A stretch of 48,757 bases of DNA from Escherichia phage PhiR70_1. The notes under the pieces were generated by a model that did not search any database, was not told where the DNA came from, and saw only the letters and a program-made list of their open reading frames with translations. Position numbers and translations under genes: made by a program. Location: sequence record PV340577. One strand, written 5' to 3'. Positions 28,835 through 30,313 of the stretch are shown in pieces; the stretch's first letter is position 1; every line of letters begins with the position of its first letter.

Positions 28835-28850
28835 TCATGGCCCTTCGGGG

Positions 28851-30276
28851 TAATGCCGATCAGTTAAGGATCAGTTGACCGATCCAGTGGCTGTGTAAGA
28901 ATCCGGAAACGCTCACTCGTTTCCGGATTTTTTTATGCACATTGGACAGGCCCTTGATTTGGTATCCCGTTACGATTCTCTGCGTAACCCACTGACTTCT
29001 CTGGGGGATTACCTCGACCCCGAACTCATCTCTCGTTGCCTTGCCGAATCAGGTACTGTAACGCTACGCAAGCGCCGTCTTCCCCTCGAAATGATGGTCT
29101 GGTGTATTGTTGGCATGGCGCTTGAGCGTAAAGAACCTCTTCACCAGATTGTGAATCGCCTGGACATCATGCTGCCGGGCAATCGCCCCTTCGTTGCCCC
29201 CAGTGCCGTTATTCAGGCCCGCCAGCGCCTGGGAAGTGAGGCTGTCCGCCGCGTGTTCACGAAAACAGCGCAGCTCTGGCATAACGCCACGCCGCATCCG
29301 CAATGGTGCGGCCTGACCCTGCTGGCCATCGATGGTGTGTTCTGGCGCACACCGGATACACCAGAGAACGATGCAGCCTTCCCCCGCCAGACACATGCCG
29401 GGAACCCGGCGCTCTACCCGCAGGTCAAAATGGTCTGCCAGATGGAACTGACCAGCCATCTGCTGACGGCTGCAGCCTTCGGCACGATGAAGAACAGCGA
29501 AAATGAGCTTGCTGAGCAACTTATAGAACAAACCGGCGATAACACTCTGACGTTAATGGACAAAGGTTATTACTCACTGGGACTGTTAAATGCCTGGAGC
29601 CTGGCGGGAGAACACCGCCACTGGATGATCCCTCTCAGAAAGGGAGCGCAATATGAAGAGATCAGAAAACTGGGTAAAGGCGATCATCTGGTGAAGCTGA
29701 AAACCAGCCCGCAGGCACGAAAAAAGTGGCCGGGACTGGGAAATGAGGTGACAGCCCGCCTGCTGACCGTGACGCGCAAAGGAAAAGTCTGCCATCTGCT
29801 GACGTCGATGACGGACGCCATGCGCTTCCCCGGAGGAGAAATGGCGGATCTGTACAGTCATCGCTGGGAAATCGAACTGGGATACAGGGAGATAAAACAG
29901 ACGATGCAACTGAGCAGGCTGACGCTGAGAAGTAAAAAGCCGGAGCTTGTGGAGCAAGAGCTGTGGGGTGTCTTACTGGCTTATAATCTGGTGAGATATC
30001 AGATGATTAAAATGGCGGAACATCTGAAAGGTTACTGGCCGAATCAACTGAGTTTCTCAGAATCATGCGGAATGGTGATGAGAATGCTGATGACATTGCA
30101 GGGCGCTTCACCGGGACGTATACCGGAGCTGATGCACGATCTTGCAAGTATGGGACAACTTGTGAAATTACCGACAAGAAGGGAAAGGGCCTTCCCGAGA
30201 GTGGTAAAGGAGAGGCCCTGGAAATACCCCACAGCCCCGAAAAAGAGCCAGTCAGTTGCTTAACTGACTGGCATTA
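28851..30276 (+). mobile_element. IS4 insertion sequence with 12-bp target-site duplication
   Basis: Terminal inverted repeats TAATGCCGATCAGTTAAG / CTTAACTGACTGGCATTA; flanked by direct repeats GGCCCTTCGGGG at 28839-28850 and 30277-30288; element length 1426 bp. Confidence 0.9.
28935..30263 (+). CDS. IS4 transposase
   Basis: 442 aa; [66 protein letters not shown]... matches IS4 transposase as recalled. Confidence 0.9.
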
Positions 30277-30313
30277 GGCCCTTCGGGGCCATTTTCTCTC
30301 TGTGGAGGAGTCC

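What the first reader, a model, noticed from the sequence alone, without database searches (positions are those of the whole stretch)
28839..30288. IS4 inserted between major capsid gene E and FI, with intact 12-bp target duplication
A complete IS4 copy sits in the E-FI intergenic region inside the late operon, duplicating GGCCCTTCGGGG, which is part of a hairpin-forming GGCCCTTCGGGGCC. The intact duplication indicates the insertion happened in place. It is likely polar on FI through J and stf, so the prophage may be packaging- or tail-deficient.
Basis: partly seen in the sequence, partly recalled or inferred. Interest (0 to 1): 0.55.

Follow-up and report, generated by a model that had tools for sequence, protein, structure and literature searches.

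The report
IS4 in a prophage terminator hairpin
An ordinary, intact copy of the well-known E. coli insertion sequence IS4 sits in a small terminator-like hairpin between the capsid gene E and the packaging gene FI of a lambda-like prophage; the hairpin is the kind of site IS4 prefers, it has been hit independently in other strains, and the insertion probably does not by itself disable the phage.

Summary
Window 28851-30276 is a 1426-bp IS4. It is 100% identical to annotated IS4 copies and 99.2% identical to the K-12 resident IS4. It has 18-bp terminal inverted repeats and an intact 442-aa transposase, and is flanked by GGCCCTTCGGGG at 28839-50 and 30277-88. Lambda and 86 phage records show the uninterrupted site.

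The target is a 7-bp stem with a UUCG loop and a T-run. Thirty-four other IS4 sites I rebuilt share one pattern: A-run, GC palindrome, T-run, with the central 11-14 bp duplicated. This preference is already described for the IS4 subgroup.

Five complete E. coli genomes carry IS4 at the same nucleotide in the same orientation. A 13-bp versus 12-bp duplication and two IS4 alleles point to at least three independent hits.

The window is the whole prophage from attL to attR: 48,757 bp, a packageable size. It encodes a Q antiterminator, and Q-type antitermination is a documented polarity suppressor, so strong polarity is unlikely, though untested here. A private 1-bp frameshift in the tape-measure gene H is the more likely lesion. 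Verdict: real, ordinary, already known.

The parts
28839..28850 (.). Left copy of the 12-bp target-site duplication GGCCCTTCGGGG. It begins 5 nt after the E stop codon.
   Evidence: (D6). In the RNA fold this copy keeps only a 4-bp stem.
28851..30276 (+). Complete IS4 element, 1426 bp.
   Evidence: 100% identical to annotated IS4 copies. 11 substitutions (99.2%) relative to the K-12 (J53) resident IS4.
28851..28868 (+). Left terminal inverted repeat (IRL), TAATGCCGATCAGTTAAG. Three GATC sites lie within the first 40 nt of this end.
   Evidence: I1. GATC sites read directly.
28875..28902 (+). Promoter-like site TTGACC-16 nt-AAGAAT with an upstream TG; candidate transposase promoter (inferred).
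   Evidence: It is the only promoter-like hit in 27700-30800 (shuffles average 1.9), so on its own it is weak evidence.
28897..28934 (+). Strong inward-facing terminator-like hairpin (12-15-bp stem, 6-nt loop, T7 run) ending at the transposase ATG. Inferred to insulate the transposase gene from read-in transcription and to occlude its ribosome-binding site.
   Evidence: I3.: -24.8 kcal/mol, z = -5.2, 0 of 200 shuffles fold as well. A transcript starting at about 28908 cannot form it (-0.9 kcal/mol).
28935..30263 (+). IS4 transposase gene (442 aa), intact, codirectional with the phage late operon. It contains the YREK signature [15 protein letters not shown].
30247..30272 (-). Terminator-like hairpin on the minus strand, overlapping IRR and facing inward from the right end.
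   Evidence: 11 pairs, tail TCTTTTTCGG. (-18.7 kcal/mol, z = -2.9).
30259..30276 (+). Right terminal inverted repeat (IRR).
   Evidence: I1.
30277..30288 (.). Right copy of the 12-bp target-site duplication.
30277..30296 (+). Residual native hairpin GGCCC-TTCG-GGGCC plus ATTTTC, upstream of the FI ribosome-binding site. It keeps 5 of the original 7 stem pairs and the T-run.
   Evidence: (terminator-like hit 30277-30290).
27809..28834 (+). Major capsid gene E, intact, 98.5% identical to lambda E.
30314..30709 (+). DNA-packaging gene FI, intact, with its own GGAGGAG ribosome-binding site at 30304-30310.
16188..16586 (+). Q-like late antiterminator; relevant to whether the IS is polar.
   Evidence: phrog_79, E = 5.7e-54.

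Best explanation
A functional-looking copy of IS4 transposed in place into the intergenic hairpin between E and FI of a lambda-type prophage integrated at the lambda att site.

Shown: IS4 made a 12-bp staggered cut centred on the loop of the palindrome ATGGCCC-TTCG-GGGCCAT-TTTT and duplicated GGCCCTTCGGGG. The site was chosen because IS4 prefers an A-run, a GC-rich palindrome and a T-run, which is the shape of an intrinsic terminator, and duplicates the central 11-14 bp. This same hairpin has been hit at the same nucleotide and in the same orientation at least three separate times in E. coli.

Inferred: inserting into terminator hairpins places IS4 between genes rather than inside them. IS4's own inward-facing terminator just inside IRL replaces the disrupted hairpin for upstream transcription. 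It also shields the transposase gene, whose ATG abuts the hairpin's T-run. The duplicated half-site plus T-run is left downstream of the transposase gene.

Inferred from published knowledge, not tested: the late operon is transcribed by Q-modified, termination-resistant polymerase, so the insertion should be only weakly polar on FI through J. It does not push the genome (48.76 kb) beyond lambda's packaging range. If this prophage is defective, the frameshift in H is the more likely cause.
For: Identity and anatomy. The element is 1426 bp with 18-bp IRs, a 12-bp TSD, IS4-specific HMM hits, 100% identity to annotated IS4 and 99.2% to the K-12 copy.

Empty site. There are 4,540 unoccupied copies in 3,204 genomes.

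Target rule. I rebuilt 34 non-redundant sites from several genera. TSD lengths were 11, 12, 13 and 14 bp in 5, 17, 15 and 4 of the 41 junction pairs that had a duplication. A appears in 23-27 of 34 sites at each of positions -14..-11, and T in 25-28 of 34 at each of +9..+12. The arm rule is met by 22/34 sites against 0.53% of background (P about 4e-42). Median fold energy of the central 32 nt is -13.6 versus -4.6 kcal/mol (P = 1.7e-6). [quoted passage not shown]

Fit of the E-FI site: rank 73 of 94,568 positions, score 7.9 in the observed orientation versus at most 2.5 in the other.

Recurrence: five genomes are occupied. STEC17-190 has a 13-bp TSD, TGGCCCTTCGGGG, with the same IS allele as the window. 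118UI, ECO_2_R, MSB1_7C and ECO_1_S carry the K-12 allele, which has 11 substitutions (ECO_1_S was inferred from its identical flanks; its copy is 1425 bp, annotated frameshifted, and was not compared base by base). Four flank haplotypes differ by 2-6%.

Hairpins.

Context: the window runs attL to attR, all head and tail genes except H are full length, and Q, holin, endolysin and Rz are present.

Polarity suppression: PMC12360218 and PMC9388147.

Precedent: the sequenced phage genome Lambda_4B5 carries IS4 in another late-operon hairpin just after J.
Against: The E-FI site is a good match to the IS4 target pattern but not the best one in the prophage. Its A-arm matches only 2 of 4 positions, and several other hairpins score higher.

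None of 50,697 phage records, and none of the IMG/VR contigs examined (38 IS4-bearing loci and 80 E-gene loci), has IS4 at E-FI. So there is no direct evidence that a phage with this insertion is viable.

This prophage's Q is not Q-lambda, and readthrough of IS4's strong terminator (-24.8 kcal/mol, U7) by this Q was not measured.

The roles I assign to the promoter and terminator inside IS4 are read from sequence only.

The same orientation in three events is not statistically significant (P = 0.25).
Confidence: 0.85

Rival explanations
1. One reading: the IS4 insertion is strongly polar on FI, FII and the tail genes, and is what makes this prophage defective for packaging or tails.
For: IS4 carries a strong terminator-like hairpin with a U7 tail in the direction of late transcription, followed by about 1.3 kb of possibly poorly translated RNA. 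From my own knowledge, IS4 was first found as a strongly polar gal mutation. No sequenced phage carries IS4 at this site.
Against: Late transcription depends on Q. Q-loaded polymerase is termination-deficient and Q-lambda suppresses polarity (PMC9388147; PMC12360218, citing Forbes & Herskowitz 1982). A Q-like gene is intact. FI keeps its ribosome-binding site. In four of the five other occupied prophages every annotated gene in the 7.3-kb stretch fetched, from the portal gene to gpG, is intact; in ECO_1_S the portal gene and the IS4 transposase are annotated as frameshifted. An independent H frameshift already explains a tail defect.
Confidence: 0.2
2. There was a single ancestral IS4 insertion at E-FI, later spread among lambdoid prophages by homologous recombination. 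On this view the site is not a recurrent hotspot.
For: All six occupied sites have IS4 in the same orientation with the left junction at the same nucleotide. Lambdoid prophages recombine freely. 118UI and the ECO/MSB1 group share a 99.7%-identical right flank but only a 94%-identical left flank, which looks like recombination.
Against: STEC17-190 has a 13-bp duplication where the window has 12 bp, and the extra T matches the base that precedes the target. Two IS4 alleles differing at 11 positions occupy the site. The window's flanks are closer to IS-free prophages (97.7-97.8%) than to STEC17-190's flanks (97.5% left, 95.7% right).
Confidence: 0.1
3. Assembly artefact: a repeated IS4 copy was wrongly placed into the prophage by the assembler.
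For: IS4 is multicopy in many E. coli genomes, up to 32 places per genome. The same window also has a private single-base indel in H, which could hint at imperfect sequence.
Against: The junctions are exact and carry a perfect 12-bp duplication of a site that fits the IS4 target pattern. The same insertion occurs in five independent complete genomes. Misassembly does not create target-site duplications.
Confidence: 0.02

Closest known systems
IS4 of E. coli K-12 (insG; the type element of the IS4 family)
   Same: Same length (1426 bp), same IRs, same single transposase ORF, 99.2% nucleotide identity (1415/1426), and a TSD in the same 11-13-bp range. The K-12 copy has an 11-bp TSD between AT-rich arms.
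   Different: There are 11 substitutions. The window's allele is the one found 100% identical in many other E. coli genomes. The location differs: a prophage late operon rather than phnC-yjdN.
IS4 at the same E-FI site in E. coli STEC17-190, 118UI, ECO_2_R, MSB1_7C and ECO_1_S (RefSeq annotations)
   Same: Same intergenic hairpin, same left junction nucleotide, same orientation.
   Different: STEC17-190 has a 13-bp TSD. The other four carry the K-12 IS4 allele (for ECO_1_S inferred from identical flanks; its copy is 1425 bp). Flanks differ from the window by 2-6%. They appear to be separate events.
IS4 in phage Lambda_4B5 (LR595863.1) and IMG/VR contigs L012 and L018
   Same: IS4 sits inside a lambdoid late operon, in an A-run/palindrome/T-run hairpin (aaaaaagg-CACCATTTCTGGTG-cc), in a sequenced phage genome of 48,141 bp.
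   Different: The site is downstream of J, so only non-essential genes follow it. In Lambda_4B5 the orientation is opposite to late transcription, and the TSD is 14 bp.
Palindrome-targeting insertion sequences, e.g. the REP-targeting IS1397/ISKpn1 and ISRm22 (PMC1525189)
   Same: The target is chosen by a short extragenic palindrome, so insertions land between genes.
   Different: IS4's targets here are unique terminator-like hairpins with A and T arms, not a repeated REP family. PMC1525189 scored 3 of 11 IS4 copies in Shigella flexneri 2457T as REP-associated.
IS10/IS50-type protection of the transposase gene from external transcription (comparison from my own knowledge, not tested)
   Same: The structure at the IS left end would form only in read-in transcripts. 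Dam (GATC) sites are clustered at the transposase-proximal end.
   Different: In IS4 the structure is a full terminator-like hairpin with U7.

Membership tests
IS4 (the element; IS4 subgroup of the IS4 family) | Length about 1.4 kb (1426 bp for IS4) | tested here: met
   28851-30276 is 1426 bp. The K-12 copy is also 1426 bp. The subgroup range is 1400-1650 bp (PMC2266710).
IS4 (the element; IS4 subgroup of the IS4 family) | Terminal inverted repeats of IS4 type (-AATR... ends) | tested here: met
   TAATGCCGATCAGTTAAG / CTTAACTGACTGGCATTA, 16/18 complementary. The ends are identical to those of the K-12 copy.
IS4 (the element; IS4 subgroup of the IS4 family) | Target-site duplication of 10-13 bp | tested here: met
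   12-bp GGCCCTTCGGGG. The subgroup range is 10-13 bp in PMC2266710. In my sample of 45 junction pairs the lengths were 11-14 bp.
IS4 (the element; IS4 subgroup of the IS4 family) | Single-ORF DDE transposase with the IS4 N-terminal domain | tested here: met
   NF033592 at 303.9 bits (cutoff 115). Pfam Nterm_IS4 at 114 bits and DDE_Tnp_1 at 111 bits, full-length matches.
IS4 (the element; IS4 subgroup of the IS4 family) | Y(2)R(3)E(6)K motif | tested here: met
   [15 protein letters not shown] is present in the translation of 28935-30263. The motif definition is from PMC2266710.
IS4 (the element; IS4 subgroup of the IS4 family) | Near-identity to the type copy (same IS, not merely the same family) | tested here: met
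   1415/1426 identical to the J53 (K-12) resident copy. 1426/1426 identical to many copies annotated 'IS4-like element IS4'.
IS4 (the element; IS4 subgroup of the IS4 family) | Characteristic target arms flanking the duplication (A-run left, T-run right, palindromic core) | tested here: met
   The T-arm matches 4/4, the A-arm 2/4, with a 7-bp palindromic stem. PWM rank is 73 of 94,568. The fit is good but not the best in the prophage.
IS4 (the element; IS4 subgroup of the IS4 family) | Ability to transpose | not testable with these tools
   The ORF and both ends are intact. The fresh TSD and at least three independent hits at this site imply recent activity.
Lambda-type late (head) operon | Gene order nu1-A-W-B-C-D-E-FI-FII-Z-U-V-G-H-M-L-K-I-J with full-length homologues | tested here: met
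   tblastn with lambda proteins gives full-length single matches at 82-100% identity for all listed genes except H, which is split into two frames. T was not queried.
Intrinsic (Rho-independent) terminator: the native E-FI hairpin | GC-rich stem, short loop, 3' U-run | tested here: met
   The empty site folds into a 7-bp stem with a UUCG loop followed by UUUUCUCUCU. The residual copy is picked up by the terminator scan.
Intrinsic (Rho-independent) terminator: the native E-FI hairpin | Actually terminates or stabilises transcripts in vivo | not testable with these tools
   No Rfam family matched and no paper was found. Relatives are too similar for covariation; the only variation is an A-U to G.U change at the closing pair.

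The most novel reading that the evidence does not exclude
The hairpin after the major capsid gene, and a second one after J, are recurrent and orientation-biased IS4 landing pads in lambda-like prophages. Because Q-modified polymerase ignores IS4's insulating terminator, such phages stay viable. They would then carry IS4 between hosts and drive IS4 transcription specifically during lytic induction. In other words, IS4 uses phage terminators as safe harbours and the phage as a vehicle.
Probability: 0.25. Interest if true: 0.4.

Novelty: already known. Interest (0 to 1): 0.2.

Why it matters
The practical value is mainly for annotation. The IS should be masked when comparing prophages, and it should not by itself be taken as proof that the prophage is dead.

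There is also a modest biological point. The data give a clean, quantified picture of IS4's preference for terminator-shaped palindromes. They show that a specific hairpin in the lambda late operon has been hit repeatedly. If such phages are viable, they are a route for IS4 spread.

Tried and rejected
1. Opposite-orientation IS4 at E-FI. A synthetic junction query found 0 of 5,426 genomes.
2. An IS-free sister prophage that would date the insertion. The best IS-free flanks are only 97.7-97.8% identical, so there is no sister among complete genomes.
3. Rfam over the whole window gave no hit, so the hairpin is not a described RNA family.
4. Covariation support for the native hairpin. The 80 IMG/VR relatives found through E are 98-100% identical in protein, and the hairpin core is almost invariant. 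Only one A-U to G.U change and one loop change were seen, which is uninformative.
5. Literature. I could not retrieve the primary IS4 target papers. My recollection of Mayaux et al. 1984 and an 'AAAN20TTT' consensus could not be verified: there were no hits for that string and PMC98933 is not held. A search for a described role of the lambda E-FI hairpin found nothing.
6. A mononucleotide PWM as a complete model of IS4 targeting was rejected as sufficient. It ranks E-FI 73rd rather than 1st, because it ignores base-pairing.
7. Orientation bias in general. The T-run on the IRR side is on average only slightly longer than the A-run on the IRL side (4.68 vs 4.15 nt; 15 vs 10 sites), which is not significant.
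8. The built-in terminator scan did not list the IS4 left-end hairpin, probably because its stem extends into the T-run. I judged that hairpin from the repeat finder and folding instead.

Full report
**1. The observation**

The repeat finder reports the 12-nt direct repeat GGCCCTTCGGGG at 28839-28850 and 30277-30288. Immediately inside it are 18-nt inverted repeats at 28851-28868 and 30259-30276, 16/18 complementary. The 1426 bp between the repeats contain one long ORF, 28935-30263 on the + strand, 442 aa. That ORF scores 303.9 bits against NCBIfam NF033592 'IS4 family transposase' (cutoff 115). It also shows full-length Pfam Nterm_IS4 and DDE_Tnp_1 matches, and it contains the family's Y-x2-R-x3-E-x6-K signature as [15 protein letters not shown] (motif definition from PMC2266710).

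The DNA is 100% identical over all 1426 bp to many RefSeq features annotated 'IS4-like element IS4 family transposase'. IS4 occurs in 2,687 of 5,426 complete E. coli genomes. The window's copy differs at 11 positions (99.2% identity) from the resident IS4 of a K-12 derivative.

The neighbours are the lambda genes E (27809-28834), FI (30314-30709) and FII. Lambda DNA aligns to window 21676-28850 and 30277-41109, and the two alignments overlap by exactly the 12 duplicated bases, lambda 7165-7176. All 86 matching phage records have the uninterrupted site: they span 1855 bp instead of 3293, a difference of 1438 = 1426 + 12. The insertion is real and happened in place.

**2. The target**

The uninterrupted site reads cgTAAtcATGGCCCttcgGGGCCATTTTctctc. 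As RNA it folds into a 7-bp stem with a UUCG loop followed by a U-rich tail, which is the shape of an intrinsic terminator. After insertion, the copy on the E side keeps only a 4-bp stem. The copy on the FI side keeps 5 bp plus the T-run and is still picked up by the terminator scan.

**3. Why this site**

In the junction searches, many IS4 copies at unrelated loci matched 11-17 nt beyond the IS end. I therefore collected IS4 left ends from IMG/VR and from GTDB species-representative genomes: 136 loci from Escherichia, Shigella, Rahnella, Kosakonia, Pantoea, Photobacterium, Photorhabdus and others. Of 45 distinct pairs of flanks, 41 had a duplication, of 11 bp (5), 12 bp (17), 13 bp (15) or 14 bp (4).

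Thirty-four non-redundant rebuilt empty sites, excluding E-FI, share one pattern:
- AAAA at -14..-11 from the centre of the duplication,
- a C-rich left half and a G-rich right half of the core,
- a T-run from +9 onward,
- 50-74% Watson-Crick symmetry across positions 3-14.

Typical examples are aaaaaccgCCGGATAATGGcggtttttt and aaaaaggCCTCTTCCGAGGccttttc.

The arm rule, at least 3 of 4 A on the left and at least 3 of 4 T on the right, is met by 22/34 sites against 0.53% of background positions (binomial P about 4e-42). The central 32 nt fold with a median of -13.6 kcal/mol against -4.6 for background (P = 1.7e-6).

This is not new. [quoted passage not shown] I also recall an older AAAN20TTT consensus, which I could not verify here.

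A PWM built without the E-FI sites ranks the E-FI position 73rd of 94,568 positions in the IS-free prophage. It scores 7.9 in the observed orientation and at most 2.5 in the other. That is a good match but not the best; the top scorers are other terminator hairpins.

**4. Recurrence**

Five complete genomes carry IS4 at this site in the same orientation, and none in the opposite one. About 4,540 unoccupied copies of the site exist in 3,204 genomes. The occupied sites do not descend from a single event:
- STEC17-190 has a 13-bp duplication, TGGCCCTTCGGGG, with an IS identical to the window's.
- 118UI, ECO_2_R and MSB1_7C have the 12-bp duplication but the K-12 IS4 allele, which differs at 11 positions. 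ECO_1_S has flanks identical to ECO_2_R and a 1425-bp, frameshift-annotated copy that was not compared base by base.
- The four flank haplotypes differ by 2-6%.

I count at least three independent insertions.

All six occupied sites have the uninterrupted arm CCATTTTCTC. In 80 IMG/VR loci, none of them occupied, that arm accounts for 38 and the lambda-type CCATTGTTTC arm for 42. This is suggestive but not significant.

A second lambdoid hotspot lies in the hairpin just after J, aaaaaaggCACCATTTCTGGTGcc. It is occupied in the phage genome Lambda_4B5 and in IMG/VR contigs L012 and L018.

**5. Anatomy of the IS and how it fits such a target (inference)**

Just inside IRL there is a promoter-like TTGACC-16-AAGAAT. 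It overlaps a very stable hairpin (-24.8 kcal/mol, z = -5.2) whose U7 tail ends at the transposase ATG. A transcript starting at that promoter cannot form the hairpin. A second inward-facing terminator-like hairpin overlaps IRR on the other strand.

I infer three things:
- IS4 is insulated from outside transcription at both ends.
- Its left terminator substitutes for the hairpin it disrupts.
- The duplicated half-site plus T-run remains downstream of the transposase gene.

None of this was tested.

**6. Consequences for the prophage**

Window base 1 aligns to lambda 27738 and the last base to lambda 27742, the att core. The window is therefore the complete prophage, 48,757 bp with IS4 included and 47,319 bp without it. 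Lambda is 48,502 bp, so packaging size is not an issue.

The following are present:
- int, xis, exo, bet, O, P,
- an S24-type repressor,
- a Q-like antiterminator at 16188-16586, a holin and an endolysin, and an Rz homologue,
- all head and tail genes, full length, except H.

That polymerase is termination-deficient (PMC9388147), and Q-lambda is described as a proven polarity suppressor (Forbes & Herskowitz 1982, cited in PMC12360218). FI keeps its own ribosome-binding site. I therefore expect weak polarity, but this rests on published knowledge of other Q proteins, not on a measurement.

The one clear lesion lies elsewhere. A 1-bp deletion between window 33904 and 33905 (lambda GCAGGCGGGC becomes GCAGGGGGC) splits the tape-measure gene H into ORFs of 90 and 747 aa. 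It is private to this window: the best of 3,723 genomes differ from the query only by that base. It is either a recent inactivating mutation or a sequencing error.

**7. Verdict**

The finding is real and correctly identified, and it is ordinary. It is a known insertion sequence at a site typical of its known target preference, and the same insertion is already annotated in five RefSeq genomes. The added value is a quantified target rule, evidence that this phage hairpin is a recurrent IS4 target, and a correction: the IS is probably not what would cripple this prophage.

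Noticed in passing
window 33904-33905 (gene H, 33651-36211): A 1-bp deletion relative to lambda (GCAGGCGGGC becomes GCAGGGGGC) frameshifts the tape-measure gene into ORFs 33651-33923 and 33968-36211. It is private to this window among 3,723 E. coli genomes with this region. It is either a real inactivating mutation or a sequencing error.
   Followed up: partly
window 1 and 48757: The window is exactly one lambda-type prophage from attL to attR: base 1 aligns to lambda 27738 and the last base to lambda 27742, with lambda-like int and xis at the left end. No tRNA gene and no Rfam family hit were found anywhere in it.
   Followed up: yes
window about 42100-42145 (between J, which ends at 42095, and the lom-like gene at 42162): There is an unoccupied terminator-like hairpin, AAAAAAGGCGTCATTTCTGACGCC on the minus strand. 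It ranks 4th in the IS4-target PWM scan. The homologous hairpin is occupied by IS4 in phage Lambda_4B5 and in IMG/VR loci L012 and L018, in both orientations. This is a second IS4 hotspot in lambdoid late operons.
   Followed up: partly
window 16775-17857 (minus strand): A 360-aa Gram-negative porin gene (Pfam Porin_1, 507 bits) lies between the Q-like antiterminator and the holin. It is a moron in the same position as the porin genes of some lambdoid phages.
   Followed up: no
window 11149-12675: A large serine recombinase (Resolvase + Recombinase + Zn_ribbon_recom, 508 aa) lies in the nin region, in a prophage that also has a lambda-type tyrosine integrase. It may be a nested element or an invertase. 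An AraC-type regulator follows at 13701-14498, and a second one lies at 46989-47741.
   Followed up: no
window 5739-6350 (minus strand) and 7936-8481 (plus strand): An MqsA-antitoxin-like protein and a YdaT-like protein flank the S24/HTH repressor (6881-7609) in the immunity region.
   Followed up: no
window 28851-28890: Three GATC (Dam) sites lie within the first 40 nt of IS4's transposase-proximal end. One is inside IRL and one is just after the -35-like TTGACC. This is reminiscent of Dam control in IS10 and IS50; that comparison is from my own knowledge.
   Followed up: no
other genomes: H49 NZ_CP028112.1, H50 NZ_CP027577.1, H61 NZ_CP074785.1: In these O103-type and related strains the homologous major capsid gene E is itself split by an IS110-family IS621 element, annotated as 'major capsid protein (x2)' plus an IS621 transposase.
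   Followed up: no
locus L010 (IMG/VR 2547132127_000009): IS4 is inserted with a 13-bp TSD, TACACCATAGGTG, in a sequence identical to lambda at about 38,294-38,306. That is the cro-cII intergenic region, at or next to rutB and just downstream of nutR in lambda's annotation.
   Followed up: partly
loci L045-L124 (genome contigs): The exact 24-nt IS4 left end occurs in many copies in Rahnella sp. PCH160, Kosakonia oryziphila, Candidatus Pantoea communis, Photobacterium sagamiensis and a Scandinavium MAG. Single hits occur on tiny contigs labelled Nostoc and Methylobacterium, which look like contamination.
   Followed up: no
window 4175-4562 (gam): Lambda Gam maps in two pieces in different frames (residues 10-36 and 29-138). 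The long-form N-terminus is therefore disrupted or diverged, while a 98-aa ORF at 4172-4468 remains.
   Followed up: no
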